Positions 4,578-50,978 of a stretch of DNA of 64,000 nt are shown here, piece after piece. Positions within the stretch are counted from its first letter, which is position 1. Each line of letters begins with the position of its first letter. Under the pieces are notes generated by a model. That model saw only the letters and a list, made by a program, of their open reading frames with translations, was not told where the DNA came from and searched no databases. The position numbers and the translations under genes were made by a program. Where the stretch lies: NCBI GenBank assembly GCA_038044925.1, contig JBBSZC010000004.1, positions 11,166 to 75,165 on the forward strand, given 5' to 3'. This DNA comes from Nanobdellota archaeon. GTDB lineage: Archaea > Nanobdellota > Nanobdellia > Pacearchaeales > GW2011-AR1.

Positions 4578-4721
4578 TTTTGTTTATACAGCTTTTATCT
4601 TTCTATTAAAAGTTCGAGGCTTGTAGAAGATTTTACTTCCGCAGTAAGGACAGAGGAATCTTTTTTCAAGATTCGTGTTTGTTATCTTCTTTTCACACTT
4701 GAAACATTTATATTGTGCCAT
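4578..4721 (-). CDS. rpoP: DNA-directed RNA polymerase subunit P (Rpo12/RpoP)
   Basis: 47-aa ORF not in the track: MAQYKCFKCEKKITNTNLEKRFLCPYCGSKIFYKPR, a CxxC...CPYCG zinc ribbon. Confidence 0.7.
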
Positions 4722-4736
4722 TTTTAGTTTTTTATT

Positions 4737-4955: not shown

Positions 4956-4968
4956 ATTAAGTATAAAA

Positions 4969-5083
4969 TGGGGATACGCGGATTTGAACCGCGGTCGCGA
5001 GGTGTTTAGGAAGCGTCTTAAGATATCCTCCTCGAGACTTCTTCACCCAAACCTCGAAGGCTACCAGACTACCCCATATCCCC
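4969..5083 (-). tRNA. tRNA-Pro (anticodon TGG) with an intron of about 42 nt after position 37
   Basis: Reverse complement gives GGGGATA acceptor, D loop AGTCTGGTAG, anticodon stem CGAGG/CCTCG, loop TTTGGG with a spliced-in A at position 38, T arm CGCGGTTCAAATCCGCG, 3' TATCCCC-A. Confidence 0.7.
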
Positions 5084-5115
5084 TTAAATTAAGAGAGCTG
5101 GGAGATATTTATAAA

Positions 5116-15376: not shown

Positions 15377-15665
15377 AGGTACAACGAGAGTTTACAGGAA
15401 AGAAGATTTTGATGAAGAGATTAAATTCGTTAATAAATTATTGAGTGATTTGGATAAACTAGATAGAGAGTGGAAAATAAGGAATGAGGCTAGAAAATAT
15501 ATGTTAATAGGAGAAATTACTGATAAAAAGTTAAATAAAGAACCTAGAAAGTTTTATGAAAATGAAAGAGAGGGTATATTAAATCATATAAGAGTTATAC
15601 AATCTAATATTATTGCATATTATGTCTTTAATACTCCTCAAGAAAATCGTAAAGGGGATAGATAA
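15369..15665 (+). CDS. hypothetical protein inserted between L10 and L12
   Basis: 98-aa ORF overlapping the L10 stop by 8 nt. Confidence 0.35.
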   Translation: MSEGTTRVYRKEDFDEEIKFVNKLLSDLDKLDREWKIRNEARKYMLIGEITDKKLNKEPRKFYENEREGILNHIRVIQSNIIAYYVFNTPQENRKGDR

Positions 15666-17490: not shown

Positions 17491-17578
17491 AATTGAAACT
17501 AGTTACTTACAAACCTATATAAGCAGTTTCAATTTCACTTTTTTATATTTTCAGCATAAACAGAAAATAATTGAAACT
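17491..17578. promoter_or_regulatory. three copies of AATTGAAACT (two direct at 17491 and 17569, one inverted at 17525) upstream of the metal gene cluster; candidate operator
   Basis: 10-mer repeated three times within 90 bp just upstream of ATG 17583; an ArsR-family regulator is encoded in the cluster. Confidence 0.3.
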
Positions 17579-17582
17579 AACA

Positions 17583-19325: not shown

Positions 19326-19326
19326 T

Positions 19327-19581
19327 ATGAAAAAAATCAATCTTGTTATTCTTTTTGCATTTTTAATTAGTCTAAGCTTAATTGCAAATATTTCCGCTCT
19401 TGAAAATAATGCTAATAGTTGTCTGATGGGAGGAGTAATGTATGGATTTAATGGGAGTTATGGTTCAGGAACAATGATCTTGAGCTGGACTGTCTCTATA
19501 CTACTGATTGTGCTAATTATTGCTGGAATTTATTGGTTTATAAAATCTGCAAATAATAAAACTTCCGGAGGTAAAAAATGA
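19327..19581 (+). CDS. small secreted/membrane protein
   Basis: Signal-like N-terminus MKKINLVILFAFLISLSLIA plus a C-terminal TM. Confidence 0.35.
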   Translation: MKKINLVILFAFLISLSLIANISALENNANSCLMGGVMYGFNGSYGSGTMILSWTVSILLIVLIIAGIYWFIKSANNKTSGGKK

Positions 19582-19769
19582 AAGCAAATTTAAATATCAA
19601 AGGAATGCACTGCAAAAGTTGCGTTAAATTAATTGAAAGCGAGTTTCAAGATAAAGTTAATAGAATAAAGGTTGAAGAAAATGGCAAAGCTACTATTGAC
19701 TTTGACGAGAAAAAGATAAGTCTTCAGAATATCAAAGACACTATAAAAGAACTGGGCTATCAAGCTTAA
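19578..19769 (+). CDS. copZ: heavy-metal-associated (HMA) copper chaperone, CopZ-like
   Basis: IKGMHCKSCV MxCxxC motif; 63 aa. Confidence 0.75.
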   Translation: MKANLNIKGMHCKSCVKLIESEFQDKVNRIKVEENGKATIDFDEKKISLQNIKDTIKELGYQA

Positions 19770-19781
19770 TTATAAATCAAA

Positions 19782-20312
19782 ATGGCAGAAAAAACAAGAT
19801 GTGAAGAATGTGATAGAAATTTTCCAAGTTTGGATGCGTTATCAATGCATAACACCGCTAAACATAGTTCTACAATCGTAGAGAAAAAGAGATTATCAAA
19901 AAAATCAATTATGACCCTAGTGATTATAGCAATAATTTTGATTAGTGGTTTTTGGTTTGTTTATAATTCTTCAGGAAGAAATACTACTGGCAATGTAGTT
20001 AATGAAAATACTCTCAAAGATAATAAGGATAGCTCTAATCCATCAACAAATAACGAAATACAAAAAATAACATTAAGCATGAAGAACAATTATTATCCAA
20101 ATACTATTACTGTAAAATCCGGAGTTCCAGTTGAAATAACTTTAGATAGCAGTGTTGGAGGTTGTTATAGATCATTTAGTATACCTAAATTGGGTGTTTC
20201 TAAACGTTCGTCTAACCCTTCAGATACAATAAAGTTTACTCCAAGTCAAAAAGGAACTTTTAGATATCAATGCAGTATGGGCATGGGAACTGGAACTATA
20301 ATTGTAGAGTAA
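19782..20312 (+). CDS. membrane protein with N-terminal C2H2 zinc finger, one TM and a C-terminal cupredoxin-like domain
   Basis: CEECDRNFPSLDALSMHNTAKH fits C-x2-C-x12-H-x4-H; TM LVIIAIILISGFWFV; C-terminal domain homologous to 18.99-19.3 kb and 20.34-20.69 kb. Confidence 0.5.
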   Translation: MAEKTRCEECDRNFPSLDALSMHNTAKHSSTIVEKKRLSKKSIMTLVIIAIILISGFWFVYNSSGRNTTGNVVNENTLKDNKDSSNPSTNNEIQKITLSMKNNYYPNTITVKSGVPVEITLDSSVGGCYRSFSIPKLGVSKRSSNPSDTIKFTPSQKGTFRYQCSMGMGTGTIIVE

Positions 20313-20337
20313 AAAAGAAAGGAGGTTAAAAAACAAA

Positions 20338-20694
20338 ATGAATAAAACAGCAGTTATTATTGGGGTTGTGGCGATACTTTTAGTAAGCAGTATTTTTGTG
20401 TTGAAATCCTTTACAGGAAATTCTATTCAAGAAAAGGATGTAAAAGAATTTACAATTAAAGCATTTAGATTTGGCTACGCTCCCGGCACAATAACAGTAA
20501 ATCAAGGAGACAAAGTTAAACTAATAATAAATAATACAGATACTCTTCATGGAATAAGAATACCTGACTTAGCCGTTAGGGGAGATGAAATTTTAGAGTT
20601 TACAGCAGATAAACAAGGAGAATTTACTTGGTATTGCGCTAATATGTGTGGAAAAGACCATATGCAAATGCAAGGTAAATTATTAGTGAAATAA
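20338..20694 (+). CDS. cytochrome oxidase subunit II-like cupredoxin (CuA-type motif) with N-terminal TM
   Basis: HGIRIPDL and YCANMCGKDHMQM match the COX II H...CxxxCxxxHxxM CuA ligand pattern. Confidence 0.6.
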   Translation: MNKTAVIIGVVAILLVSSIFVLKSFTGNSIQEKDVKEFTIKAFRFGYAPGTITVNQGDKVKLIINNTDTLHGIRIPDLAVRGDEILEFTADKQGEFTWYCANMCGKDHMQMQGKLLVK

Positions 20695-20695
20695 G

Positions 20696-20920
20696 ATGAT
20701 ATTGATAATAGGGCAAACACTTATTTATTGGACAGGAATACTAACCGGGATTTTCTTTATTTTTTCTTTTTTAGGGTGTTGTTGTCATACTAAACTTTGC
20801 AAATATTCTATTTTCGGAAAAGTAGGAAAGTATCATAAATTTTTTATTTATCTTGCTTTATTATTTTTTATCATACATGCATCTCTTGCAATAATGACTA
20901 AATTTGGAGTAATCATTTAG
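20696..20920 (+). CDS. small Cys-rich membrane protein
   Basis: Two TM helices flanking GCCCHTKLCKY. Confidence 0.3.
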   Translation: MILIIGQTLIYWTGILTGIFFIFSFLGCCCHTKLCKYSIFGKVGKYHKFFIYLALLFFIIHASLAIMTKFGVII

Positions 20921-20939
20921 AACCGAAAGGTTTAAATAC

Positions 20940-21344
20940 TTGAACAATTGTTCAATTAATACAATGAAACAAACACAAGAAACAAAACAACCAGCAGACA
21001 AGAAGGTCATTCAGTTTTTTTCTAGCCTTGCCGACGAAACAAGACTAAAAATATTGTTAAGCCTGACAAAGGGTCCAAAAACTGTTAATGGGATATATGA
21101 TTATGTTGGAAGAGAAAAAGTATCATTATCTGCTATTTCACATCAATTAAAATTTTTAAGCGATATAGACATGGTCCAACATAAAAGAAATGGTCAGGAA
21201 AAGAATTTCGAGTTATCAAATGATTTCTGTTGGTGTATAATAAGAGATGTTTTCAAACACTTTGATGGAAATTCAAAAAAATTCAATGAGTGCTGCGGAT
21301 GTTCAGATAAAAAATCAGAGAAAAGAGGGGGAGGACAAGATTAA
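20940..21344 (+). CDS. ArsR/SmtB-family metal-responsive transcriptional regulator with a Cys-rich C-terminus
   Basis: HTH LADETRLKILLSLTKGPKTVNGIYDYV; C-terminal CWC...CCGCSD. Confidence 0.75.
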   Translation: MNNCSINTMKQTQETKQPADKKVIQFFSSLADETRLKILLSLTKGPKTVNGIYDYVGREKVSLSAISHQLKFLSDIDMVQHKRNGQEKNFELSNDFCWCIIRDVFKHFDGNSKKFNECCGCSDKKSEKRGGGQD

Positions 21345-21963
21345 AAAGACAAATGTTTCAACAAACCCCATTAGCGGAAAAATAATTGCGATTGTATTGA
21401 CAGTTGCAATATTGATCATAGGAACTTTCTTTTATTTTATTGCTAGTGGCAATTCTAGCGGGGCTGTTGTAAGTAATTCTGGAGAAATGAATTCAAATGT
21501 TCCTCAAGAACAGATGAAAACTAATGATAATTCTAATACTATCGGAAGCAATCTAGAAGAACCAATGAATGGTAAGGGTTCTAGTGAAGAAGAAACGCAA
21601 AATTCTAATTCTCTATTCAATCATATTTTGCAGGAAAATAAAATTTATATTAAAATAAATTCTGAAGGAATGCAAAAGTTGTTTTATTATTCTCCAGTCA
21701 ATGAACCAATTAATGTTCCATTATCAGAAGGAAATATCGGAGAATATCAAATTCATTCTATTGGCGGGCAAAAATATTATCCTTTAATTGTGGGCTATGA
21801 AGAAGCCAAAATAATGAGACAAGAGGGTCTTTTTTCTAATATTGGAGACCCAATTAAAAATTTCTTTGGAAAAAATGTTGTAATAGTCGGAGTAATGCAA
21901 AGAACAGGCGGAATGATGGATATGGTTCATTTAATACCTTTAAGTGAAGGAGAGTGGAATTAA
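21286..21963 (+). CDS. membrane-anchored extracytoplasmic protein with a Met-rich motif (putative copper binding)
   Basis: TM IIAIVLTVAILIIGTFFYFIA; C-terminal MQRTGGMMDMVH; start uncertain (overlaps the ArsR 3' end). Confidence 0.4.
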   Translation: MSAADVQIKNQRKEGEDKIKKTNVSTNPISGKIIAIVLTVAILIIGTFFYFIASGNSSGAVVSNSGEMNSNVPQEQMKTNDNSNTIGSNLEEPMNGKGSSEEETQNSNSLFNHILQENKIYIKINSEGMQKLFYYSPVNEPINVPLSEGNIGEYQIHSIGGQKYYPLIVGYEEAKIMRQEGLFSNIGDPIKNFFGKNVVIVGVMQRTGGMMDMVHLIPLSEGEWN

Positions 21964-21964
21964 A

Positions 21965-24157
21965 ATGGTTCAAAAACTTAACCTTAGCATTACTGGAATG
22001 CATTGTCAAAGTTGCGTAACTTTATTGACAAAGGGGATTCAAAGAGACCCGGGAGTAAAGTATGTAAATGTTAATTATGCAACTGAAAAAGCCGCTGTGG
22101 AATTTGATGAGTCTAAAACAAATCATGATAAGATAATTCAAATTATTTCAGGATTAGGATACAGCGCAAGACCCATTACAGGAGAAACTAATCCAGAATA
22201 TGAAAATCAAAAGAAACAGGCCGAAATAAAGAAACTAAAAAATACTTTTATATTCAGCTTAATATTTGCATTTCCTGCGTTGATGATAGGTATGGTTTTA
22301 ATGTGGTTTGGAATAGATGTTCCTTATAAAAATTTTATTTTATTTTTGCTTGCAACGCCTGTCCAATTTATTGTAGGATGGGATATTTACAAAAGTGCAT
22401 TTGGAGCATTAAAAAATAAGTCTGCTAATATGGATAGTTTGATCGCTATTGGAACAAGTGCGGCTTATTTCTATAGTCTTTATGTTATTATGTTTAGTCC
22501 AATGGGCGATCAATATTTTGAAGCAGCAGCTGTCCTAATCACATTTGTAATCTTGGGGAGATATTTAGAAGCTGTTGCAAAAGGAAAAACAAGCGAAGCA
22601 ATAAAAAAACTAATGAATCTATCTCCAAAAATAGCAACAGTTATAAGAAATGGGCAAGAAGTCAAGATTCCTGTTGATGAAGTAGTTGTTAATGATGTTG
22701 TAATTGTTAAACCTGGTGAAAAAGTTCCAGTTGATGGCGTAATTATTGAAGGAGAAAGTGCTATTGATGAATCTATGATTACCGGAGAATCAATGCCAAT
22801 TGAAAAAAATAAAGGAGATACTGTTATTGGAGCAACAATCAATAAACATGGTTCGTTTAAATTCAAAGCAACAAAAGTTGGGGCAAATTCTACTTTAGCA
22901 CAAATCATAAAACTAATAGAAGATGCACAGGGAAAGAAAGCTCCAATTCAAAGATTTGCAGATAAAATTTCGGCTTATTTTGTTCCCGCAGTAATCTTAA
23001 TAGCTATCTTATCATTTGTAGTATGGTATTTTGTTGTTGGTCAAACATTTGAATTTTCTTTAATAATTGCAGTTTCTGTTCTAGTTATAGCATGTCCTTG
23101 CGCTTTGGGATTAGCAACTCCAACTGCTATAATGGTTGGAACAGGAAAAGGAGCTGAAAAAGGTATTTTAATCAAAGGCGGAGACGCTCTTGAAACAGCC
23201 CATAAACTTTATGCAGTAGTATTTGATAAAACAGGAACCTTAACTCAAGGAAAACCAGAAGTTACTGATGTTGTATCTGTAAAAAATATGGATGAAGATG
23301 AAGTTTTGAAATTTGCAGCAAGTGTTGAACAATTTAGCGAACATCCATTAGCTCAGGCTATTGTAAACAAGACAAAAGAGAAAAATATCAAATTAGAAGA
23401 CATAAAGAACTTTAAAGCAATCCCAGGACATGGTGTTGAAGGGATGTTAAAAAGAAAGAAAATAATTGTAGGAAAGCCCGAATATATTAGAAAACTTGCA
23501 GGTCTTGGATCATTTGAAAATAAAATTGCAGAACTAGAAGGAAATGGAAAGACTGTTGTTGTTCTTTGCATTGATAAAAAGGTAGAAGGATTCATAGGAA
23601 TTGCAGATACTCCTAGACAAGATTCAATAGAAGCAGTTAAGGAATTGCAAAAACAAAAAATCTATGTTTATATGATTACTGGAGATAATAAAAGAACTGC
23701 TAATGCTATTGCTAAACAATTGGGAATTACGCATGTTATATCTGAAGTTCTTCCTGAAGACAAAGCTAAACATGTTAAAGAATTGCAGAAAAAAGGAAAA
23801 GTTGCAATGGTTGGAGATGGAATTAATGATGCTCCTGCGCTAGCTCGAGCAGATATCGGTATTGCAATTGGTTCTGGAACTGATGTTGCAATGGAAACAG
23901 GCAATGTTGTTTTAATGAATAATAAAACAACAGATGTTGCAAAAGCGATTAAATTAAGCAAGGTTACAATCAGAAAAATAAAACAGAATATGTTCTGGGC
24001 ATTATTCTATAATGCTCTTGGAATACCTATTGCAGCAGGAGCATTATATTCCTCAACAGGCTGGTTATTATCACCAATAATTGCAGGAGGAGCAATGGCT
24101 TTGTCATCAGTTAGTGTTGTTCTAAATACATTAATGATGAAGAGGACTAAAATTTAA
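21965..24157 (+). CDS. copA: copper-translocating P1B-type ATPase CopA
   Basis: HMA ITGMHCQSCV; TGES; CPC in ACPCALGLATP; DKTGTLT; GDGINDAP. Confidence 0.9.
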   Translation: MVQKLNLSITGMHCQSCVTLLTKGIQRDPGVKYVNVNYATEKAAVEFDESKTNHDKIIQIISGLGYSARPITGETNPEYENQKKQAEIKKLKNTFIFSLIFAFPALMIGMVLMWFGIDVPYKNFILFLLATPVQFIVGWDIYKSAFGALKNKSANMDSLIAIGTSAAYFYSLYVIMFSPMGDQYFEAAAVLITFVILGRYLEAVAKGKTSEAIKKLMNLSPKIATVIRNGQEVKIPVDEVVVNDVVIVKPGEKVPVDGVIIEGESAIDESMITGESMPIEKNKGDTVIGATINKHGSFKFKATKVGANSTLAQIIKLIEDAQGKKAPIQRFADKISAYFVPAVILIAILSFVVWYFVVGQTFEFSLIIAVSVLVIACPCALGLATPTAIMVGTGKGAEKGILIKGGDALETAHKLYAVVFDKTGTLTQGKPEVTDVVSVKNMDEDEVLKFAASVEQFSEHPLAQAIVNKTKEKNIKLEDIKNFKAIPGHGVEGMLKRKKIIVGKPEYIRKLAGLGSFENKIAELEGNGKTVVVLCIDKKVEGFIGIADTPRQDSIEAVKELQKQKIYVYMITGDNKRTANAIAKQLGITHVISEVLPEDKAKHVKELQKKGKVAMVGDGINDAPALARADIGIAIGSGTDVAMETGNVVLMNNKTTDVAKAIKLSKVTIRKIKQNMFWALFYNALGIPIAAGALYSSTGWLLSPIIAGGAMALSSVSVVLNTLMMKRTKI

Positions 24158-27946: not shown

Positions 27947-28082
27947 CGCCCCCACGAGGATTTGAACCTCGGTCTCAACCTTCTTACTTTATCTCCTTGA
28001 AATCTAGGAGAGGTAGTGTCAGGAGAACCTTGGTTCTCCCACATCCGCAAGGTCGTGTTCTATCCAACTGAACTATAGGGGC
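27947..28082 (-). tRNA. tRNA-Arg (anticodon GCG) with an intron of about 63 nt
   Basis: Reverse complement: acceptor GCCCCTA/TGGGGGC, D arm GTTC-AGTTGGATA-GAAC, anticodon stem CGACC/GGTTG, loop TTGCGG plus spliced-in A, T arm CGAGGTTCAAATCCTCG, discriminator G. Confidence 0.6.
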
Positions 28083-31676: not shown

Positions 31677-31756
31677 CGCCCCCGCCAGGAATCGAACCTG
31701 GGAGCCCAAAGGGCATGGTTCTCAAGACCATTGCTCTACCACTGAGCGACAGAGGC
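31677..31756 (-). tRNA. tRNA-Ser (anticodon TGA), no intron
   Basis: Reverse complement: GCCTCTG acceptor, D arm GCTC-AGTGGTA-GAGC, anticodon stem ATGGT/ACCAT, loop CTTGAGA, long variable arm, T arm CCAGGTTCGATTCCTGG. Confidence 0.7.
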
Positions 31757-36403: not shown

Positions 36404-37455
36404 TTAAAGGGAGCTAGGGATGGGTGCATAAATAGCTTTTACAACATTCCTCCTTAACTTAAAGCTATTAGCCCACTTTGCATAGGCGTTCCAACCATTA
36501 AAACTTTCTAATAGTTTTTCCTTACTTAATTCTCCGCTTTTGTGTTGTCTTATTCTGAATATTATATTTCTTAAATTTTTCTTTCTTAACAAGTTATAGT
36601 GATAGAATTTTCTAAACCCTACAAAATCAATTCCTCTTGATAGAGGAATTATTTTAGATTTCTGAGAATGTAGTTCTAGCTTTAATTTTTCTTTCAATAA
36701 TCTGTTTATTTGCTCTTTCCACACTTCTAGTTGTTCCTTAGAATTATGAAGAATAACAAAATCATCTACATATCTAATATAATATCTAGCCCGTAACTTA
36801 TTCTTAACAAACCAATCCAATTCGTGAAGATAAACGTTGGCGAAGAATTGGGAGGTTAGATTGCCGAGAGGCATTCCTTTCTCGCAAAAACTCGTTCGCC
36901 CCCCCCCCCGAACGAGTTCGGGCTGTTATTAAGAATCTGACCAATCAACCAAATAACTTTTTTATCTTTAATCTTTCTGCTTAAAATTTCTATTAAAATC
37001 TTGTAATTAACTTCTTTAAAATAATGCTTTATGTCTGCTTTCAAACAAAAGGAAATTCTGCTATTGTTTTTAGTAACTTTTCTCTGAAATAATTCAAATC
37101 TTTTAAGTGCAAATAAATTCCCCTTTCCTACTCTGTTCGCACAAGAATCATAAATAAAAGATTTGTCAAAAAGTGGCTCAATTATTCTAACAACTGCATG
37201 ATGAACTATTCTATCGGGAAAGGCAGACTTTGAAATTTTGCGGGTTTTTGGGTCTCTTAACACAAAGTTCTTTAGAGGTTCTGGCTTATATGTCTGATTT
37301 TTTAGCTTATCTGACAAGCTGATTAGATTTTTAAATAAATTAGCTTCAAATTCAATAACATAGTTCTTTTTAGTCTTGCCTTTTCTTGCTTTTCTCCAAG
37401 CAAGAATTAAGTTAGACAAATTATAAATCTGCTCATATAAGTTATTAGTTTCCAT
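36404..37455 (-). CDS. DGR-type reverse transcriptase, split into two ORFs (37455-36856 and 36874-36404) by a frameshift inside a G11 homopolymer
   Basis: N-terminal LILAWRKARKGK; motif 3 ADIKHYFKEV; motif 4 KGMPLGNLTSQFFANVYLHELD; motif 5 YVDDFVI; adding one G (12 instead of 11) gives continuous ...NSFGGGGRTSFCEKGMPLGN... Confidence 0.8.
36891..36917. repeat. C11 (G11 on the coding strand) homopolymer flanked by a 10-bp inverted repeat, AACTCGTTCG-C(n)-CGAACGAGTT, inside the RT gene
   Basis: 11 consecutive C at 36899-36909 in a roughly 29% GC genome; flanking arms perfectly complementary. Confidence 0.85.
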
Positions 37456-37484
37456 AATAAGTATAAAGTCTTAGGAGTTAGAGC

Positions 37485-37576
37485 TATTCCAGACGCATAA
37501 CCATACTCGACATCAGCATGGTAGTTGCCATTGACATTCAACCTGTCACCATTCCAGTTCGAATTCACCGCGGATA
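37485..37576 (-). other. DGR template repeat (TR)
   Basis: About 89-nt repeat of the VR; at all 13 mismatches TR has A on the coding strand; TR codons AAT/AAC dominate. Confidence 0.85.
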
Positions 37577-37746
37577 GTTATGTAGCCAGTTTACCTTCCT
37601 ATCACTGAAATTCCTCGTAAGGAAAATCTGTATTTTATGACTTAAAATAAAATCAAATATGTCTTGATAAATTGGCATGTAGCCCTAGCTTATCGCTAAG
37701 ACAAAAATTAACTAAAATAAGAATTAATAAACCTTTACTTATTTTT

Positions 37747-38442
37747 TTACGAAGCGCCTTCGGCGCTTTTTGGCAATACCCCAGACGCAAAACCATACCC
37801 GACATCAGCATGGTAGTAGCCATGGACATACAACCTGACACCAAGCCAGTCCGAATCCACCGCGGTATATTTTTTCAAATCTCTATTTTGAGAGTCTAAA
37901 GCACCAACATAAGGTGCTTTTCTGCTTATTTTTTCAGCAACTCTTGCTACAACATCTTCAGCGAAATCTTTATCTGTAACTTGTCCAATTATATAAGAAT
38001 TTGCAACTAAATCTGAAACTGACTGGTTTCCTGTCTTAAATCCATATTTAACTAATCTTACTGCCTTATCTCCATCTTTCATTCTTTTTATTAAACTTGC
38101 CCTATCTGTTGGCATAGTTCCATCAATATTATCATAAAGAATAACATCTTCTTTTCCCCATAAATTCTCAGTAGTCGTCAATAGCCATTGGTTTTTTACT
38201 CTGGAAACTATATCCTTGCATTGTTTATTATCTGGATTGCTTAATGCAAAATCTATTAAAGAAAATGTCTGGGCAGTTGTAGGTCTTAGTAATTTTCCTT
38301 TTGTAATTGCACCCATAACTTTTTGGTGAGTTCCTGGTCCTTCAAGAGGATAAGCACTTGTTAAAATCCCATTTCCGTGCTTATAATCCATTTCGGTTCT
38401 AGCTATTCTTATTCTTCCACCATTTAGTTCTTTAGTTATCAT
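37747..38442 (-). CDS. DGR target (variable) protein with C-terminal VR; N-terminal domain of unknown family
   Basis: 231-aa ORF; the last roughly 40 aa are encoded by the VR; no obvious signal peptide. Confidence 0.75.
   Translation of the reverse strand: MITKELNGGRIRIARTEMDYKHGNGILTSAYPLEGPGTHQKVMGAITKGKLLRPTTAQTFSLIDFALSNPDNKQCKDIVSRVKNQWLLTTTENLWGKEDVILYDNIDGTMPTDRASLIKRMKDGDKAVRLVKYGFKTGNQSVSDLVANSYIIGQVTDKDFAEDVVARVAEKISRKAPYVGALDSQNRDLKKYTAVDSDWLGVRLYVHGYYHADVGYGFASGVLPKSAEGAS
37750..37773 (-). promoter_or_regulatory. GC-rich stem-loop (7-bp stem AAGCGCC/GGCGCTT, 4-nt loop) 8 nt downstream of the VR
   Basis: Perfect GC-rich hairpin in an AT-rich context, at the position of the homing-enhancing hairpin of characterised DGRs. 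Confidence 0.5.
37777..37868 (-). other. DGR variable repeat (VR) encoding the C-terminus of the target protein
   Basis: See TR; VR reads ...TAVDSDWLGVRLYVHGYYHADVGYGFASGV versus TR SAVNSNWNGDRLNVNGNYHADVEYGYASGI. Confidence 0.85.
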
Positions 38443-38791: not shown

Positions 38792-39733
38792 ATGGCAGCA
38801 CCAAGAGCACCAAGAAAAGGAAGTTTACAAATCTGGCCTAGAAAAAGGGCTAGAAAGTTTTTACCTAGAGTAAACTGGAGTGGAATTAATTCTGGAAAAA
38901 ATCTTAAAGGTTTTATATGCTATAAAGCGGGAATGAGTTCTGCTTATGTAAAAGACAATACTCCTAATTCTATGACAAAAGACAGGACAAAAATAATTCC
39001 GGTAACAATTCTTGAGTGTCCTCCTATGAAGATACTCTCTATACGATTCTATAAATATGGAAAAGTTGCAAAAGAGGTTTTAAATGAAGGATTAGAAAAG
39101 GAATTAAAAAGAAAATTAAAACTTCCTAAAATCTATAAAAATAAATTAGAAAATATTAAATTAGAAGATTACGATGATGTTAAGGTTATTGTTTATTCTT
39201 TGGTTAAAAAAACAAACATAAAAAAAACTCCAGACTTATCAGAATTAGGATTGAATGGGCGTTTAGATGATAAAATGAATTTTATTAAAGATAACTTACA
39301 TAAGGAGATTTCTGTAACTCATATTTTTGGAAAAGGAAATCTTGTTGATTTAAGGGGTTTGACAAAGGGTAAGGGATTACAGGGGCCTGTAAAAAGATTT
39401 GGAATCACTCTCAAATCTCATAAGTCAGAAAAGGGTGTGAGAAGACCTGGAAGTTTGGGTCCATGGCATCCTGCAAGAGTAACTTTCAGAGCTCCTATGG
39501 CAGGGCAATTAGGGATGTTTTCAAGAGTAATTTATAATAACAAATTAGTGGATATTGGAAAAGCTGAAGAAAAATTTAAAGGGATTAAAAATTACGGAGA
39601 TATTAAAACAGATTACGTGGTAGTTTATGGCTCTGTACAAGGGCCAGCAAAAAGACAATTATTAATGACTTCTGCTCTTAGAGAAACAAGAAAACAAGCT
39701 AAAAAAAATTATGAGGTTATTGAGTTAAGATGA
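38792..39733 (+). CDS. rpl3: ribosomal protein L3 (uL3)
   Basis: Family similarity; first gene of the L3-L4-L23-L2 operon. Confidence 0.9.
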   Translation: MAAPRAPRKGSLQIWPRKRARKFLPRVNWSGINSGKNLKGFICYKAGMSSAYVKDNTPNSMTKDRTKIIPVTILECPPMKILSIRFYKYGKVAKEVLNEGLEKELKRKLKLPKIYKNKLENIKLEDYDDVKVIVYSLVKKTNIKKTPDLSELGLNGRLDDKMNFIKDNLHKEISVTHIFGKGNLVDLRGLTKGKGLQGPVKRFGITLKSHKSEKGVRRPGSLGPWHPARVTFRAPMAGQLGMFSRVIYNNKLVDIGKAEEKFKGIKNYGDIKTDYVVVYGSVQGPAKRQLLMTSALRETRKQAKKNYEVIELR

Positions 39734-40551
39734 ATGAAAAAATAAATGTTTTAGATATTCAAGGAAAGAAAATAAAAGAAATTGAGATGCCTGAATTTTT
39801 CAAGCAGAAAATAAGAGAAGATATAATCTCTAAAATAATAGAATCAAGAAAATCAAAACAGCCTTATGCTCCTTCACCTGTTGCAGGAAAACAGCACTCT
39901 GCTTCAGGACTAATAAGACACAGAAGACATGTCTGGAAAACTCATTATGGGCAGGGAAGGTCAAGAATTCCAAGAAAAATAATTTCTAAGAAAGGAAACA
40001 GAATAAACTGGATTGGGGCTGAAATTCCATCTACTAGGGGAGGTAGAAGAGCGCATCCTCCTAGAGTTGAAGGAACCATTAATGCTAATAAAATAAACAG
40101 AAAAGAATTGAGAATCGCCTTGCTGTCTGCTTTAAGTGCAAGTGCAAACCCAAAAGAAATAAAAAAGAAATATGAAAATTTAAGAGAAAAAAATATTAAT
40201 GCTCCGTTTGTTGTGGACGGAAAAATAACAGAATTGAAAACAAAGGAAGTTGTAGAAACCTTAGGAAAGGTTTTGGGGGAGGCTTTTGGTGCTGCTATTT
40301 CAAAAAAATCAATAAGAGCTGGAAAAGGAAAGCGAAGAGGGAGAAAATACAAAGAAACAGCAGGAGCCTTAATTGTTTTAGGAAACAGCGAAAAAATAAA
40401 AACAAATATTATTGAAAGCAAGAATGTTTCAAACCTTAATGTTATTGATTTATCTAATGGTGGACAAGGAAAATTAACAATTTATACTGAAAATGCAATT
40501 AAAGATTTAAATGAAAGGCTTAATAAAACTAAGGAGGAAAAAGAAAAATGA
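39730..40551 (+). CDS. rpl4: ribosomal protein L4 (uL4)
   Basis: Family similarity and position. Confidence 0.85.
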   Translation: MNEKINVLDIQGKKIKEIEMPEFFKQKIREDIISKIIESRKSKQPYAPSPVAGKQHSASGLIRHRRHVWKTHYGQGRSRIPRKIISKKGNRINWIGAEIPSTRGGRRAHPPRVEGTINANKINRKELRIALLSALSASANPKEIKKKYENLREKNINAPFVVDGKITELKTKEVVETLGKVLGEAFGAAISKKSIRAGKGKRRGRKYKETAGALIVLGNSEKIKTNIIESKNVSNLNVIDLSNGGQGKLTIYTENAIKDLNERLNKTKEEKEK

Positions 40552-41225
40552 TATCTTTAGATATAGAAACAAGTGGAATTGATATGTCTTGTTGTGGAAT
40601 TTGGCAGATTGGTGCACTAGAAATAGAAAATCCAGAAAATGTCTTTTTGCAGGAAGCACGAATTGATGCTTTAGATATTATTGAACCAGAAGCTCTAGTT
40701 GTTACAGAAAAAACCGAAGAAGAATTAAGAAGTAGGGGAAAACAATCTCAAAGAGGATTAATACAAAGTTTTCTAGAGTGGAGGGGGTTTTGTGAAGTAA
40801 AGACCGCATTATGCCACAATCCGCAATTTGATATTGGATTTATAACTCTTAAATCTTTAAAATATTTTAAAAAAGATCCATTTTGGCCAATCTATCATAG
40901 AGCATTTGATTTGCATACTCTCGCACAACAAAGATATTTTCAAGAAAATGGAAGATTTTTAATTGATGGGGATCATAGCGATATGGGTTTATCTAAAATA
41001 TTAAAATTTGTGGGAATAGAAGATAAAAGAAGAGCAATTAAAGATGGAAAAGTAGAAAGAGAAGGCAACCCCCATAACGCATTAGAAGATGCAAAATTAA
41101 CTGCAGAATGCTTTTCAAGATTAATTTATGGAAAAACCATTTTTCCAGAATATACTAAATTTAAAGTTCCAGAATATCTATTAAATCCAAGAATAAAGAA
41201 TAAAAATGAAACCAATTATTACTGA
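40548..41225 (+). CDS. DEDDh 3'-5' exonuclease (DnaQ/RNase T-like) embedded between L4 and L23
   Basis: Exo I LDIETSG, Exo II HNPQFDIGFI, Exo III HNALEDA; overlaps both neighbours. Confidence 0.75.
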   Translation: MISLDIETSGIDMSCCGIWQIGALEIENPENVFLQEARIDALDIIEPEALVVTEKTEEELRSRGKQSQRGLIQSFLEWRGFCEVKTALCHNPQFDIGFITLKSLKYFKKDPFWPIYHRAFDLHTLAQQRYFQENGRFLIDGDHSDMGLSKILKFVGIEDKRRAIKDGKVEREGNPHNALEDAKLTAECFSRLIYGKTIFPEYTKFKVPEYLLNPRIKNKNETNYY

Positions 41226-41442
41226 AAAAGCTGTAATGATGATTGAAGCTAAAAACACTTTAGTATTTGAAATGGGAATTAAAATAAAAAAACCAGAAAT
41301 TAAAAAAGAATTTGAAGAAGTTTTTAATGTTAAAATAAAAAGGATAAATACCCACATAAAAGACAATAAAAAATATGCTTATATTCAATTAAAGCCAGAA
41401 TTTCCTGCTATTGATATAGCAACGAAATTAGGATTGATGTAA
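41206..41442 (+). CDS. rpl23: ribosomal protein L23 (uL23)
   Basis: Family similarity. Confidence 0.8.
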   Translation: MKPIITEKAVMMIEAKNTLVFEMGIKIKKPEIKKEFEEVFNVKIKRINTHIKDNKKYAYIQLKPEFPAIDIATKLGLM

Positions 41443-41443: not shown

Positions 41444-41818
41444 ATGGCAGAGAAAAATACTGAAATAATCCGAGCAATTAATAATCTAAATAGTAACGAA
41501 GCCTTAAAAATTGGTATCTGTAGAGAGTCTCATGGGACAGATGAGGGACCTTTATTTCATGCTTATATGGAAATAGAAGGGAAGGAAGTTTATTTAACTG
41601 CCCATTGCTGTGAATTAAGCTTTGCAGTAGATTTATCAGATAAATTAAATAAAATAGGCGTAGAAAGAGTGATTCTCTCTCCTCTTAATATTAAAAAACA
41701 TCAAAAAAATTATTCCGTCTCTAAAAGTGATTTAGATTTGTTGAGAGGATTATTATCAAGGAATGGGATTCAAACCGAGATAGATTTAGAACATTTAACT
41801 TTAAATAAATTTTATTAA
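41444..41818 (+). CDS. hypothetical protein inserted between L23 and L2
   Basis: 124-aa ORF; no ribosomal protein family recognised. Confidence 0.35.
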   Translation: MAEKNTEIIRAINNLNSNEALKIGICRESHGTDEGPLFHAYMEIEGKEVYLTAHCCELSFAVDLSDKLNKIGVERVILSPLNIKKHQKNYSVSKSDLDLLRGLLSRNGIQTEIDLEHLTLNKFY

Positions 41819-41819: not shown

Positions 41820-42518
41820 ATGGGAAAGACAATAATTCAACAAGCGCGAGGGCATGGAAGCATGACTTATCAAGTCAGAAAAAAAGCTTATATTTACAGA
41901 ATTGGATATCCAAGGAATTTAACAGGAATTGGAGAAGTCGCAAGACTCTTCAATTCATCAGCACATTCAACACCTATGGCGGAAATAAGATGGCAGGGTA
42001 AAAAATTTTATATTCCTGCATTTAAAGGAATGTATGAAGGACAAGAAATAAATTTTAATGAAAAAACAATAATTGAAGGAAATATTTTGAAATTAAAAGA
42101 TATTCCAATTAATACAAATATTTATTGCATAGAATCAAGACCTAATGATGGGGGAGTTTTTGTAAGAACTAGCGGAAATAATGCAGTAGTTAATAGAGTT
42201 GTTGGAGAAAAAATTGAGATTTTAATGCCTTCAAAAAAAGGAAAAGAATTTAATGAAAATTGCAGAGCTGTTATTGGAGTTATTGCAGGAGCAGGAAGAT
42301 TAGATAAGCCATTTGTAAAAGCAGGAAGCAAATTTTTTAAGATGAAAGCGAGAAATAAATTTTGGCCGAGAACTTCAGCTGTGAAGTTTAATGCGATAGA
42401 TCACCCATTTGGAAGTGGTAGAGGTAAAAGAATTAAGAGTAAGATTGCTAAGAGAAACGCACCTCCTGGAGCCAAAGTAGGATTAATAAGACCAAAGAGA
42501 ACTGGTAGGAAAAGATAA
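41820..42518 (+). CDS. rpl2: ribosomal protein L2 (uL2)
   Basis: Family similarity. Confidence 0.85.
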
Positions 42519-44184: not shown

Positions 44185-44406
44185 ATGGCAGTATTAAAAA
44201 TTAAAGATATTAAAAACATGAGCAAGGAAGATATAGAGAAGAAATTAAAAGAATTAAAATTTGAATTAATTAAATCAAAGGCTAATGCGGCGAAATCCGG
44301 CAAATCGAATAAAAGAGAAATAAAAAAAATAATTGCTAGAATACTCACACTCAACAAAAGTTCTCCTTTAAATATGGAAACTTCAGAGAGAAAAACAACA
44401 AAATAA
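44185..44406 (+). CDS. rpl29: ribosomal protein L29 (uL29)
   Basis: Family similarity. Confidence 0.8.
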   Translation: MAVLKIKDIKNMSKEDIEKKLKELKFELIKSKANAAKSGKSNKREIKKIIARILTLNKSSPLNMETSERKTTK

Positions 44407-44410
44407 CAAT

Positions 44411-44710
44411 ATGGATATATGTCCAAAATGCGGCCTGCCAATGCAGGCATGTGTATGCGAACAAATCGTAAAGAGTTCGCAGAGAATAAAAATATCTCTT
44501 GAAAAAAAGAGATATGGTAAAATAGCTACGATAGTGACTGGATTTGACAAGGGATTTGACATGAAAAAAATCGCAAAAGCTCTAAAAAATGAGCTTGCTT
44601 GCGGAGGAACATACAGAGACGGCGAAGTCGAACTTCAAGGAGACCACAAGAAAAAAGTAAAACCAATCCTTATAAAGCTGGATTTTGAAGAAAGTTCAAT
44701 AGAAGAGTAA
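44411..44710 (+). CDS. sui1: translation initiation factor SUI1 (aIF1)
   Basis: N-terminal CPKCG...CVC zinc site; ACGGTYRDGEVELQGDHKKKVKPILIKLDF. Confidence 0.8.
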   Translation: MDICPKCGLPMQACVCEQIVKSSQRIKISLEKKRYGKIATIVTGFDKGFDMKKIAKALKNELACGGTYRDGEVELQGDHKKKVKPILIKLDFEESSIEE

Positions 44711-44789
44711 AACAAAAAACGCATACACAAAAAATTGAAGGTGAAAAAGAGCTCTCTTTTAAAAAGAGACTTCAGAGAGAAAAGAAAAA

Positions 44790-45176
44790 ATGGAAAAAGA
44801 AAAAACAATAAAACAAGAGAAAGGGAAAAAGATAGTCGAAACTCCAAACAACATTTGTAATGATGTAGACTGCCACATTCATGGAAATTTAAAGGCAAGG
44901 GGAAAGACTTTTGAAGGAACTGTTATCAAAAAATTCCCTAAGAGAATTGTAATAGAGTTTGAAAGAAGCATTTATGTAAAAAAATACGAGAGATATTCTA
45001 AATCAAGAACAAGAATTCATGCAAGACTCCCAAAATGCATGGAAGATTCGATGAAAATAGGAGATTATATTAAAGTTCAAGAATGCAGACCTTTAAGCAA
45101 GATAATCCATTTTGTAGCAATAGAAAAAATAAAAGATGCTCAAGATAAATTAAATTTAAGAGATAAAGGAAAATGA
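44790..45176 (+). CDS. rps17: ribosomal protein S17 (uS17)
   Basis: Family similarity. Confidence 0.8.
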   Translation: MEKEKTIKQEKGKKIVETPNNICNDVDCHIHGNLKARGKTFEGTVIKKFPKRIVIEFERSIYVKKYERYSKSRTRIHARLPKCMEDSMKIGDYIKVQECRPLSKIIHFVAIEKIKDAQDKLNLRDKGK

Positions 45177-45575: not shown

Positions 45576-45794
45576 ATGAAAAAAGAACAAGAATATCTAC
45601 CAGAATATTATGAAGAGATACCATATAATGAAGTACTTAGGGAATTTCGAAAGGGACTCCTGGAAGATTTAGGACAATCAGAACCGAAATACCTGATAGG
45701 AGCACTCGTCGATTTAATTGGATCATTTTTAGGGCATGAAATAATGAGGGGTTTAAATAAACATTTTCCTAATCAATCAAGAGGTCAAAAATGA
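45576..45794 (+). CDS. hypothetical small protein inserted between L14 and L24
   Basis: 72-aa ORF tightly packed between the neighbours. Confidence 0.35.
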   Translation: MKKEQEYLPEYYEEIPYNEVLREFRKGLLEDLGQSEPKYLIGALVDLIGSFLGHEIMRGLNKHFPNQSRGQK

Positions 45795-49965: not shown

Positions 49966-50712
49966 ATGTCAGAAAAAAATAATCTTGAAGAAATTGAAAT
50001 GATTAAAGAACCTATAGAGTTAATCGAAAAACAGTTAATTAAAGAAATACCTGTAAAAAAAGAAGTAGAAAAAATTGTTTCTTGGACTCCAAAAACAAAA
50101 CTTGGCAGAAGGGTAAGAGCTGGAGAAATAAAAAATATAAATGAAATTCTTGATAATGATATGAAAATACTTGAGGTAGAAATAGTTGATTCTTTATTAG
50201 ATTTAAAATCAGATTTAATATTAATTGGACAGTCAAAGGGAAAATTTGGAGGGGGAAAAAGAAGGGCTTGGAAACAAACTCAAAGAAAAACAAAAGAGGG
50301 GAATATTCCTACATTCTCTGCAATGGTAGTTGTTGGAGACGAAAACGGGCATGTTGGGGTTGGAAGCGGAAGAGCGAGTGAAACTCTTCCTGCAAGAGAT
50401 AAATCTTTAAGAAAAGCAAAATTAAATATCTTTAAAGTAAACAGGGCTTGTTCAAGTTTTGATTGTTCTTGCAGTGAAAAACACACTATTCCATTTAAAG
50501 TTACTGGAAAATCAGGAAGTGTTGAGGTTAATTTAATTCCTGCACCGCAAGGAACAGGATTAGTTGTCGCAAGAGAACTAAAAAAAGTATTAAGCCTTGC
50601 TGGAATTAAAGATTGTTATAGTAAAACTTTTGGAAGCAGAAGAACAACTGCTAATCTTGTTAAAGCTTGTGTGGATGCTCTTAAAAAAGCTTCAAGGAGA
50701 TCTAAAAAATGA
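49966..50712 (+). CDS. rps5: ribosomal protein S5 (uS5)
   Basis: Family similarity. Confidence 0.85.
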   Translation: MSEKNNLEEIEMIKEPIELIEKQLIKEIPVKKEVEKIVSWTPKTKLGRRVRAGEIKNINEILDNDMKILEVEIVDSLLDLKSDLILIGQSKGKFGGGKRRAWKQTQRKTKEGNIPTFSAMVVVGDENGHVGVGSGRASETLPARDKSLRKAKLNIFKVNRACSSFDCSCSEKHTIPFKVTGKSGSVEVNLIPAPQGTGLVVARELKKVLSLAGIKDCYSKTFGSRRTTANLVKACVDALKKASRRSKK

Positions 50713-50978
50713 AAACAGGAAAAATGGTTAAAATAGGGGAAGATGAATTTGAAGATGAACGAATTGTTTTTGATGTACTTAGAATCCCAGTTAATGCCTT
50801 AGAAACTAGTCTAAATAAGATCAGGAGTATAGATGAGAAAAAAAATTTCTTTGAATATGTAGAAGCAGCATTTGAATATATTAAAAAAAGAGATATTGTA
50901 AGGAAATTTAATTTATTATCAAAAGAAACTGTTCGCCAATATAATAAACAATATAGTGAGATAGTTTTTGGAGTTTAA
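50709..50978 (+). CDS. hypothetical small protein inserted between S5 and L30
   Basis: 89-aa ORF overlapping the S5 stop. Confidence 0.35.
   Translation: MKTGKMVKIGEDEFEDERIVFDVLRIPVNALETSLNKIRSIDEKKNFFEYVEAAFEYIKKRDIVRKFNLLSKETVRQYNKQYSEIVFGV

What the first reader, a model, noticed from the sequence alone, without database searches (positions are those of the whole stretch)
40548..41225. DEDDh 3'-5' exonuclease gene embedded inside the L3-L4-L23-L2 ribosomal operon
A complete DnaQ-like exonuclease (DIETSG / HNPQFD / HNALEDA) overlaps the L4 stop and the L23 start. It must be co-transcribed and co-regulated with ribosomal proteins. In lineages that lack the exosome or RNase PH, such an enzyme could be the rRNA/tRNA 3'-trimming activity.
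Basis: partly seen in the sequence, partly recalled or inferred. Interest (0 to 1): 0.55.

Follow-up and report, generated by a model that had tools for sequence, protein, structure and literature searches.

The report
Exonuclease gene fixed inside ribosomal operon
A small DNA/RNA-trimming enzyme gene sits between two ribosomal protein genes in this tiny-genome archaeon and in dozens of related species, so it is an old, selected arrangement, but whether it trims RNA or DNA is still unknown.

Summary
ORF 40548-41225 (+) encodes a 225-aa DEDDh 3'-5' exonuclease with all five catalytic residues. It overlaps the uL4 stop by 4 nt (ATGA) and the uL23 start by 20 nt.

The host is a DPANN archaeon of the Pacearchaeota/Woesearchaeota group. 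The insertion is not a one-off. In 52 of 81 species-level loci the single-copy ortholog lies in the L3-L4-[exo]-L23-L2 cluster, and most have 4-nt overlaps on both sides. The protein is about as conserved as the flanking ribosomal proteins.

In 18 loci it instead heads a coupled exo-Gins51 pair, and in 3 it sits between S27e and eIF2alpha. Both are parts of the known archaeal replication/translation supercluster.

Fold and profile comparisons place it only in the generic DnaQ-like group. PolC/DnaQ domains match slightly better than RNase T, and no curated subfamily threshold is met.

My best reading is a housekeeping exonuclease co-expressed with ribosomal proteins that probably trims RNA 3' ends. 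A DNA or replication role remains a serious rival. I found no publication describing the arrangement.

The parts
38792..39733 (+). uL3 gene, first gene of the cluster
   Evidence: Pfam Ribosomal_L3, 1.5e-54
39730..40551 (+). uL4 gene; its stop codon is inside the ATGA shared with the exonuclease start
   Evidence: Pfam Ribosomal_L4, 9.8e-20; coordinates
40534..40538 (+). Shine-Dalgarno-like GGAGG inside the uL4 3' end, 9 nt upstream of the exonuclease ATG
   Evidence: Sequence. A GGAG-type motif at the same distance occurs in most L4-exo loci, and across all contexts in 47 of 81 loci. Function is inferred, not shown.
40548..41225 (+). DEDDh (DnaQ-like) 3'-5' exonuclease, 225 aa, single domain plus a disordered 13-aa C-terminal extension
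40560..40577 (+). Exo I motif DIETSG (catalytic D5, E7)
   Evidence: Invariant in alignment A1
40815..40832 (+). Exo II motif HNPQFD (catalytic D95)
   Evidence: D95 invariant in A1
41073..41093 (+). Exo III motif HNALEDA (catalytic H176, D181; the 'h' of DEDDh)
   Evidence: H176, N177, A178 and D181 invariant in A1
41206..41225 (+). 20-nt overlap between the exonuclease 3' end and the uL23 start. Relatives usually overlap by 4 nt; here a 13-aa tail has extended the exonuclease ORF.
   Evidence: residues 217-225 have pLDDT below 50
41206..41442 (+). uL23 gene
   Evidence: Pfam Ribosomal_L23, 8e-13
41444..41818 (+). Orphan 124-aa ORF packed between uL23 and uL2. It belongs to the operon but not to the exonuclease family.
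   Evidence: No Pfam or NCBIfam hit; the only match among 5.8 billion proteins is itself
41820..42518 (+). uL2 gene; the operon continues with S19, L22, S3, L29, SUI1, S17, L14 and onward to SecY

Best explanation
This is a lineage-specific, single-copy housekeeping DEDDh 3'-5' exonuclease of Pacearchaeota/Woesearchaeota-type DPANN archaea. Its gene was fixed long ago inside the S10-type ribosomal protein operon, between uL4 and uL23.

It has no intergenic space on either side. I therefore infer that it is transcribed on the ribosomal-protein mRNA and translated by termination-reinitiation (ATGA overlap), helped by an SD-like GGAGG embedded in the uL4 3' end. Its output would then track ribosomal protein synthesis.

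The enzyme uses the canonical two-metal DEDDh mechanism (D5, E7, D95, D181 with H176 as general base) to remove nucleotides one at a time from a free 3' end. This chemistry follows from established knowledge of the superfamily and was not tested here.

I infer, without direct evidence, that the substrate is RNA. The most likely role is final 3' trimming or turnover of stable RNAs made together with ribosomes, as RNase T does for bacterial 23S/5S rRNA and the Rex/REXO enzymes do in eukaryotes. On this view it acts alongside the exosome, not as a replacement for a missing one.
For: Gene and fold.

Conserved position: 42 loci have L4-exo-L23 directly and 10 more have one small ORF intervening, giving 52 of 81 distinct loci. 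The two closest metagenomic relatives also lie in L3-L4-exo-L23-L2.

Coupling: 47 of 52 overlap the upstream gene by 4 nt and 40 of 52 overlap the downstream gene by 4 nt. Published work links such overlaps to translational coupling (PMC6728339, PMC10666635; abstracts listed).

Selection: mean identity to the window protein is 51.6%, compared with uL4 54.9%, uL22 49.9% and uL23 58.8%.

Native, ribosomal-protein-like codon usage: CAI 0.725 against a ribosomal-protein mean of 0.71 and a non-ribosomal mean of 0.67; only 4 of 63 non-ribosomal genes score higher.

One copy per genome among the 80 loci, judged from distinct assembly accession prefixes. No core-family member was found in viral contigs.

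Hints toward RNA: all 18 family members tested hit the Rv2179c-like exoribonuclease Pfam family, best 4.6e-11. A distant member is fused to a MazF/PemK RNA-endonuclease domain. Another distant member lies among aminoacyl-tRNA synthetase, MiaA and 2'-5' RNA ligase genes, and another lies near RtcB in a phage-like contig. Tandem exo-exo fusions with one dead copy suggest a dimeric enzyme like RNase T or Orn. The third recurrent context, S27e-exo-eIF2alpha, is also translational.
Against: There is no direct evidence for the substrate.

Sequence affinities are marginally better to DNA proofreading domains: PolC exo 42.9 bits, DnaQ domain 37.9, Cas2-DEDDh 35.6, against RNase T 25.8 and Orn 14.6. 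NCBIfam top hits are PolC and epsilon. PHROG 192 is named 'DNA polymerase exonuclease subunit'.

Eighteen species have a coupled exo-Gins51 bicistron instead.

The DPANN cluster I assign this lineage to reportedly keeps the exosome core, so there is no obvious vacancy to fill. tRNA genes in the window lack encoded CCA, so tRNA trimming is not specifically indicated.

Archaeal operons can contain internal terminators, so co-transcription need not mean equal expression (PMC10450193, abstract listed). The RNA-linked fusions and contexts come from distant, at least partly bacterial or phage, family members.
Confidence: 0.42

Rival explanations
1. It is a DNA-directed 3'-5' exonuclease of the replication or repair apparatus, acting as a trans-acting DnaQ-like proofreader or 3'-end processor with the CMG/GINS replisome. 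On this view the ribosomal-operon position only supplies constitutive, growth-coupled expression.
For: The best sequence matches are PolC-type and DnaQ domains and PHROG 192, 'DNA polymerase exonuclease subunit', at 70 bits. In 18 of 81 species the exo is the first gene of an exo-Gins51 pair, 12 of them with 4- or 14-nt overlaps. In Pace33H it lies two genes from a RecJ/Cdc45-like DHH protein.
Against: Gins15/51 is itself normally embedded in the PPsG-LSIN supercluster with S27e, L44e, aIF2alpha and Nop10 (Berthon 2008, PMC2643942). Adjacency to GINS is therefore not specific evidence for a DNA role. The similarity to proofreaders is about 25% identity over the N-terminal ~105 residues and far below every curated cut-off (28 bits against 196-873). 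The majority context (52 of 81) is purely ribosomal with coupling on both sides. Ribosomal-protein-level synthesis of a DNA exonuclease seems unnecessary and risky, which is inference.
Confidence: 0.27
2. It is a general RNA-turnover enzyme or nanoRNase (Orn-like). It would finish mRNA decay by degrading short oligoribonucleotides left by the exosome or aRNase J, with no specific link to rRNA or tRNA maturation.
For: It is a small single-domain DEDDh enzyme, single-copy and strongly conserved in reduced genomes. The tandem pseudo-dimer fusions fit Orn/RNase T-type dimers. High, growth-coupled expression suits a bulk scavenging role in nucleotide-auxotrophic symbionts; that last point is inference.
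Against: Similarity to Orn/REXO2 is the weakest among the DEDDh groups (E 0.19, 14.6 bits). Nothing in the genomic context points to nucleotide salvage. DHH-family candidates for nanoRNase activity exist in the same lineage.
Confidence: 0.17
3. It is a passenger insertion. The junctions of ribosomal operons in these archaea are permissive landing sites, and the exonuclease is one cargo that happened to be retained. Its position would then say nothing about its function.
For: The neighbouring junctions L3/L4 and L23/L2 carry highly variable, mostly singleton small ORFs in many species. The window has orphan ORFs at L23/L2, L14/L24, S5/L30 and L10/L12. A Nudix-like ORF sits between L4 and the exo in two loci. 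The exo occupies at least three different operons across the clade.
Against: Unlike those ORFs, the exo is one orthologous family kept at the same junction across lineages only 47-59% identical to the window protein. Its conservation equals that of ribosomal proteins and its overlaps are preserved. All three recurrent contexts are core information-processing operons rather than random sites.
Confidence: 0.12

Closest known systems
RNase T (E. coli rnt; TIGR01298) and eukaryotic Rex1-4/REXO DEDDh RNA exonucleases
   Same: It has the DEDDh catalytic set, is a ~200-aa single domain, and is a structural match (Foldseek E about 2.5e-7, TMq 0.51-0.58). The proposed job, 3'-end trimming of stable RNAs, is what these enzymes do. 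Tandem fusions hint at a dimer like RNase T.
   Different: Only 18-22% identity. It scores 18 bits against the 246-bit TIGR01298 cut-off. No RNase T-type basic nucleotide-binding segments were identified. It is archaeal and encoded inside a ribosomal protein operon, which rnt is not.
DnaQ / Pol III epsilon and the PolC exonuclease domain
   Same: These are the best sequence-level matches (2p1j 42.9 bits, 8h18 37.9 bits). The Exo I/II/III motifs and fold are the same (1j53 TMt 0.79).
   Different: It scores far below the equivalog cut-offs (28 bits against 196-873). No epsilon-type C-terminal polymerase-binding extension was detected (only the N-terminal ~105 residues align to epsilon; not examined directly). 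As far as I know archaea have no Pol III alpha partner. It is a stand-alone protein.
Rv2179c-like 3'-5' exoribonucleases (Pfam PF16473)
   Same: All 18 family members tested hit this model across nearly its full length, best 4.6e-11.
   Different: The window protein is below the gathering cut-off (22.8 against 27). No Rv2179c chain appears among the PDB sequence hits at E<=1.
Stand-alone defence or accessory DEDDh exonucleases (CBASS Cap18, Cas2-DEDDh)
   Same: Cap18 is the top structural hit (7t2s, E 3.7e-8). Cas2-DEDDh scores 35.6 bits in the PDB profile search.
   Different: There are no defence genes nearby and the gene is a single-copy core gene in housekeeping operons. I did not run a PADLOC scan.
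Non-ribosomal genes resident in archaeal ribosomal operons (Rpp29/RNase P subunit between L29 and S17, SUI1, SecY, adenylate kinase), and the PPsG-LSIN supercluster
   Same: These are precedents for RNA-processing and replication genes co-encoded with ribosomal proteins. Two of the exo's three contexts (S27e-exo-eIF2alpha and exo-Gins51) fall in the PPsG-LSIN gene set (PMC2643942).
   Different: As far as I know the L3-L4-L23-L2 core is normally uninterrupted in bacteria and archaea, and I found no report of a conserved enzyme gene between L4 and L23. The Rpp29 position is recalled from my own knowledge. In this window SUI1 occupies the L29-S17 slot and no Rpp29 is present.

Membership tests
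DEDDh (DnaQ-like) 3'-5' exonuclease superfamily (Pfam PF00929) | Exo I D-x-E, Exo II D and Exo III H-x4-D catalytic residues | tested here: met
   D5, E7, D95, H176 and D181 are present and invariant in 18 relatives
DEDDh (DnaQ-like) 3'-5' exonuclease superfamily (Pfam PF00929) | Score above the curated Pfam cut-off over the whole domain | tested here: met
   29.1 bits against 24, profile positions 2-164 of 164; 18 of 18 relatives match, best 3.6e-13
DEDDh (DnaQ-like) 3'-5' exonuclease superfamily (Pfam PF00929) | RNase-H-like alpha/beta fold | tested here: met
   AF2 model pLDDT 90.8; Foldseek probability 1.00 to Cap18, DnaQ, RNase T, epsilon and ExoI
DEDDh (DnaQ-like) 3'-5' exonuclease superfamily (Pfam PF00929) | Metal-dependent 3'-5' exonuclease activity | not testable with these tools
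   Requires a biochemical assay
RNase T (TIGR01298) | Equivalog HMM score at or above the cut-off | tested here: not met
   18.2 bits against 246.2
RNase T (TIGR01298) | Homodimer with basic nucleotide-binding segments acting across subunits | tested here: inconclusive
   The only support is indirect: tandem exo-exo fusions with one inactive copy, P0121 and P0147. No multimer model was possible.
DNA polymerase III epsilon / PolC proofreading exonuclease (NF004316, TIGR01406, NF001688) | Equivalog HMM score at or above the cut-off | tested here: not met
   28.5 against 196, 21.9 against 222.7, and 28.2 against 873
DNA polymerase III epsilon / PolC proofreading exonuclease (NF004316, TIGR01406, NF001688) | Association with a C-family polymerase, by C-terminal alpha-binding tail or fusion in PolC | tested here: inconclusive
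   The protein is a stand-alone 225 aa, and only its N-terminal ~105 residues align to epsilon or PolC. The conserved tail FPEYxKFKIPxYL was not compared with the epsilon tail. No polymerase gene lies in the operon. That archaea lack Pol III alpha is my own knowledge, not tested here.
Rv2179c-like exoribonuclease (PF16473) | Score above the Pfam gathering cut-off | tested here: inconclusive
   The window protein scores 22.8 against 27. Family members reach 4.6e-11, and many homologs carry PF16473 in the precomputed annotations.
Oligoribonuclease (Orn/REXO2) | Significant sequence similarity to Orn | tested here: not met
   Profile against PDB Orn: E 0.19, 14.6 bits
Archaeal S10/spc ribosomal protein operon | Co-directional order L3-L4-L23-L2-S19-L22-S3-L29...S17-L14-L24...SecY with minimal spacers | tested here: met
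   Extra ORFs lie at L4/L23 (the exo), L23/L2, L14/L24 and S5/L30.
Archaeal S10/spc ribosomal protein operon | Single transcript covering the exo and its neighbours | not testable with these tools
   Inferred from the 4-nt and 20-nt overlaps. Confirmation needs metatranscriptome or Term-seq data.

The most novel reading that the evidence does not exclude
The exonuclease is made in near-stoichiometric amounts with ribosomal proteins and is a lineage-specific ribosome-associated factor of Pace/Woesearchaeota. It could be the long-sought archaeal enzyme that finishes 23S/5S rRNA 3' ends during large-subunit assembly, or a ribosome-bound co-translational 3'-5' mRNA decay activity. It may compensate for the Csl4-less exosome of Cluster 2 DPANN.
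Probability: 0.12. Interest if true: 0.75.

Novelty: new variant of a known kind. Interest (0 to 1): 0.45.

Why it matters
The L3-L4-L23-L2 block is, to my knowledge, one of the most invariant gene orders in cellular life. A catalytic, non-ribosomal gene held in that block by overlapping codons across a large archaeal radiation, and as conserved as its ribosomal neighbours, marks an enzyme whose dosage is tied to ribosome production.

As far as I know, the exonucleases that finish rRNA 3' ends in archaea have not been identified. This family is a concrete candidate that can be expressed and assayed. If it instead acts on DNA, it would be a DnaQ-type exonuclease coupled to GINS in archaea, which to my knowledge has not been described and would also be noteworthy.

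Either way it is a clean marker gene and synteny character for Pacearchaeota/Woesearchaeota. It also adds a case to the replication-translation gene linkage described by Berthon et al. (2008).

Tried and rejected
- An NJ tree of 81 orthologs intermixes ribosomal-operon and GINS contexts outside one large ribosomal-operon clade. With about 210 columns and about 50% identity it cannot resolve which context is ancestral, and I draw no conclusion from it.
- I looked for exosome genes. None are in the annotated window. L37ae-prefoldin beta is present without the Rrp4/41/42 genes that, as I recall from Koonin et al. 2001, usually precede it. A regex scan for RNase PH motifs in all held loci found nothing. 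This does not show absence from the genome, which I could not search.
- I considered a PIP-box reading of the conserved C-terminal GKNLFPEF motif and rejected it, because it lacks the Q and the aromatic pair of the canonical motif as I recall it (read from A1).
- Viral origin or mobility of the core family: no relatives in IMG/VR. More distant members do occur in a phage-like contig and in bacterial contigs.
- Literature searches found no description of this gene arrangement. One search failed on syntax, as did another.
- The sigma-70 promoter and terminator scanner was not used because it does not apply to archaea.
- ORF 41444-41818 was tested as a possible partner gene. It is an orphan and is not conserved at that junction.
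Full report
**1. The observation**

ORF 40548-41225 on the + strand encodes 225 aa. Pfam's generic DEDDh model (RNase_T, PF00929) matches end to end at 29.1 bits against a cut-off of 24. The Rv2179c-like exoribonuclease model falls just below its cut-off at 22.8 against 27.

The gene's ATG forms ATGA with the uL4 stop (40548-40551). Its last 20 nt overlap the uL23 start at 41206. An SD-like GGAGG lies 9 nt upstream of the start, inside the uL4 3' end. Pfam confirms uL3, uL4, uL23 and uL2 as the flanking genes. The operon then runs through S19, L22, S3, L29, SUI1, S17, L14, L24 and onward to L30, L15 and SecY.

One correction: uL23 and uL2 are separated by a 124-aa ORF (41444-41818).

**2. A real, conserved protein**

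A search of 5.8 billion proteins returned 909 homologs at E<=1e-3. The best 120 are 50-64% identical, about 210 aa long, and where named come from Pacearchaeota, Woesearchaeota or 'Nanoarchaeota' MAGs. The window's own protein is NCBI 'MAG: 3'-5' exonuclease [Nanoarchaeota archaeon]'. Its contig is CAYIHG010000001.1 of GCA_964363295.1.

In an 18-sequence alignment the five catalytic residues D5, E7, D95, H176 and D181 are invariant. So are family-specific positions such as G17, W19, Q20 and I21 of the GIWQIGA motif, F189, S190 and R191 of ECFSR, and parts of a C-terminal FPEYxKFKIPxYL tail. The AlphaFold2 model is confident, with mean pLDDT 90.8 and pTM 0.88. Only the window-specific 13-residue C-terminal extension is disordered.

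**3. Which DEDDh family?**

None of the curated subfamilies fits.

- NCBIfam equivalogs for PolC, epsilon, RNase T and others score 13-28 bits against cut-offs of 71-1043.
- A family profile against PDB sequences ranks the PolC exonuclease domain (2p1j) first at 42.9 bits. Next come a Streptococcus DnaQ domain at 37.9, Cas2-DEDDh at 35.6, Cap18 at 28.7, RNase T at 25.8, Pol III epsilon at 20.7 and Orn at 14.6.
- Foldseek against PDB gives Cap18, DnaQ domains, RNase T, epsilon and ExoI at E 1e-8 to 1e-6, 18-25% identity and TMq 0.5-0.62.
- The viral library gives only generic DEDDh/DnaQ-like proteins.
- PHROG 192 ('DNA polymerase exonuclease subunit') matches at 70 bits.

This is therefore a distinct subfamily of the DnaQ-like group, marginally nearer to bacterial DnaQ/PolC-type domains than to RNase T. 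At about 25% identity over roughly 105 residues, that ranking does not decide between RNA and DNA substrates.

A profile search of 1.84 billion cluster representatives found only 119 at E<=1e-30 and 1215 at E<=1e-3, so the profile is specific. More distant members (110-160 bits) occur elsewhere:

- in a contig with MiaA, a 2'-5' RNA ligase-like gene and three aminoacyl-tRNA synthetase genes;
- in a phage-like contig with YopX and RtcB;
- fused to a MazF/PemK domain in a bacterial contig carrying GyrA and L27.

Two proteins are tandem exo-exo fusions in which one copy has lost its catalytic residues. That pattern is expected if the family works as a dimer.

**4. Synteny: the key result**

I scanned one genome per GTDB species and retrieved 80 loci. 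I called ORFs in each and labelled neighbours by BLAST to the window's ribosomal proteins and to reference neighbours. Of 81 distinct loci, including the window and L004:

- **Ribosomal operon: 52 loci.** The exo lies in the L3-L4-[exo]-L23-L2 cluster. In 42 it is directly between uL4 and uL23, and in 10 a single small ORF intervenes.
- **Gins51: 18 loci.** The exo is immediately followed by Gins51 (Pfam Gins51_C in 18 neighbours).
- **S27e-exo-eIF2alpha: 3 loci.**
- **Other: 8 loci.**

The two closest metagenomic relatives of the window protein are also in L3-L4-exo-L23-L2.

In the ribosomal-operon class, 47 of 52 overlap the upstream gene by exactly 4 nt and 40 of 52 overlap the downstream gene by 4 nt. 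A GGAG-type motif 9-12 nt upstream is common. In the Gins51 class the exo is the first gene, with AT-rich upstream spacers, and Gins51 overlaps it by 4 or 14 nt in 12 of 18 loci.

Each locus comes from a different assembly, so the gene appears to be single-copy.

Across ribosomal-operon loci the exo is 47-59% identical to the window protein, mean 51.6%. That is the same range as uL4 (54.9%), uL22 (49.9%) and uL23 (58.8%). Its codon usage resembles that of ribosomal proteins: CAI is 0.725 and only 4 of 63 non-ribosomal genes score higher. No core-family member was found in viral contigs.

The insertion is old and under selection.

**5. What the alternative contexts mean**

Berthon et al. (2008, PMC2643942) showed that archaeal Gins15 (the same protein as Gins51), PCNA and PriS are 'almost systematically' contiguous with S27E, L44E, aIF-2alpha and Nop10. 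They named this the PPsG-LSIN supercluster. The exo's two minority contexts, exo-Gins51 and S27e-exo-eIF2alpha, both fall within that gene set.

All three recurrent homes of the gene are thus core operons rich in ribosomal or translation genes. This weakens the GINS adjacency as specific evidence for a DNA role but does not remove it. The exo-Gins51 pair is itself conserved and coupled, while the genes flanking the pair vary.

**6. The exosome premise**

Dombrowski et al. (2020, PMC7414124) report that Undinarchaeota and Cluster 2 DPANN encode Rrp4, Rrp41 and Rrp42 and lack only Csl4. I take the Pace/Woese lineage to belong to Cluster 2, which is my placement and not something I tested. On that reading the lineage is not exosome-free.

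The window shows L37ae-prefoldin beta without the Rrp4/41/42 genes that, as I recall from Koonin et al. 2001, usually precede L37ae. No RNase PH-like motif was found in any held locus. Neither result tests the whole genome, which I could not search.

The two tRNA genes in the window do not encode CCA. Nothing here points specifically to an exonucleolytic tRNA 3' pathway.

**7. Mechanism**

Shown:
- an intact DEDDh active site and fold;
- an operon position with codon overlaps, conserved in dozens of species;
- conservation and codon usage at the level of ribosomal proteins.

Inferred from established knowledge:
- Two-metal 3'-5' exonucleolysis, from the DEDDh superfamily.
- Co-transcription.
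- Termination-reinitiation coupling at ATGA overlaps (PMC6728339 and PMC10666635, abstracts listed).
- Internal terminators can still modulate expression within archaeal ribosomal operons (PMC10450193, abstract listed).

Inferred with moderate confidence: the substrate is RNA and the role is linked to ribosome production, most plausibly 3' trimming of large-subunit rRNAs or other stable RNAs, by analogy with RNase T and the Rex/REXO enzymes.

My estimates are about 0.42 for that reading, 0.27 for a DNA or replication exonuclease, 0.17 for a general RNA-decay or nanoRNase role, and 0.12 for a passenger gene whose position carries no functional information.

**8. Novelty**

The protein is already annotated generically as '3'-5' exonuclease' or 'DNA polymerase III epsilon subunit-like'. 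Seven completed literature searches of the held library found no description of a conserved exonuclease between uL4 and uL23, nor of an exo-Gins51 operon, in DPANN archaea.

I rate it a new variant of a known kind: a new DEDDh subfamily and an unusual, conserved variant of the S10 operon. Interest is moderate at 0.45. The arrangement is striking and the enzyme can be tested. However, the function is unresolved, the organisms are uncultivated, and the fold itself is ordinary.

Noticed in passing
window 36404-38442 (- strand): A diversity-generating retroelement lies just upstream of the ribosomal operon. The template repeat (37489-37573) and variable repeat (37781-37865) are 85 nt long and 88% identical. 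All 10 mismatches fall at T on the + strand, which is A on the coding strand of the template. The variable repeat is the 3' end of a 231-aa ORF (37747-38442). The reverse transcriptase is split into two overlapping ORFs (36856-37455 and 36404-36874; Pfam RVT_1). Rfam RT-16 RNA matches 37577-37701 at 62.7 bits.
   Followed up: partly
window 41444-41818, 45576-45794, 50709-50978, 15369-15665; loci L005-L084: Tightly packed small ORFs of unknown function are wedged into ribosomal operons, at the L23/L2, L14/L24, S5/L30 and L10/L12 junctions. The 124-aa L23/L2 ORF matches nothing but itself among 5.8 billion proteins. In relatives, the ORFs at the L3/L4 junction (19 loci) and the L23/L2 junction (16 loci) are mostly unrelated singletons. 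These junctions look like hotspots for fast-evolving or de novo small genes.
   Followed up: partly
L016:456-842, L048:3618-4004: In two species a 128-aa ORF with what looks like a Nudix box (judged by eye, not scanned against Pfam) sits between uL4 and the exonuclease, overlapping the exonuclease by 4 nt.
   Followed up: no
P0121, P0147 (tandem); P0188/P0272, L095:5001-6035: Distant family members include tandem exo-exo fusions with one catalytically dead copy. There is also an exo-MazF/PemK fusion in a bacterial contig next to GyrA. In P0147 and P0188 the final Asp of the H-x4-D motif is replaced by Gly.
   Followed up: partly
window 44185-45176: No RNase P subunit Rpp29 gene lies between L29 and S17, where I recall many archaea carry one. 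SUI1/aIF1 (44411-44710) occupies that slot.
   Followed up: no
window ~4248-5850 (- strand): L11, L37ae and prefoldin beta are adjacent, without the exosome genes Rrp4/41/42 that, as I recall, usually precede L37ae in archaeal genomes. Whether the genome encodes them elsewhere could not be checked.
   Followed up: no
window 27947-28082 (-) and 31677-31756 (-): There are two tRNA genes. One is 136 nt long and presumably carries an intron; ARAGORN missed it but Rfam found it. Neither encodes a 3' CCA.
   Followed up: partly
window 17571-24157: A copper and heavy-metal handling cluster sits between ribosomal-protein clusters. It includes HMA domains, cupredoxin-like proteins, DsbD-like proteins and a P-type ATPase.
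   Followed up: no
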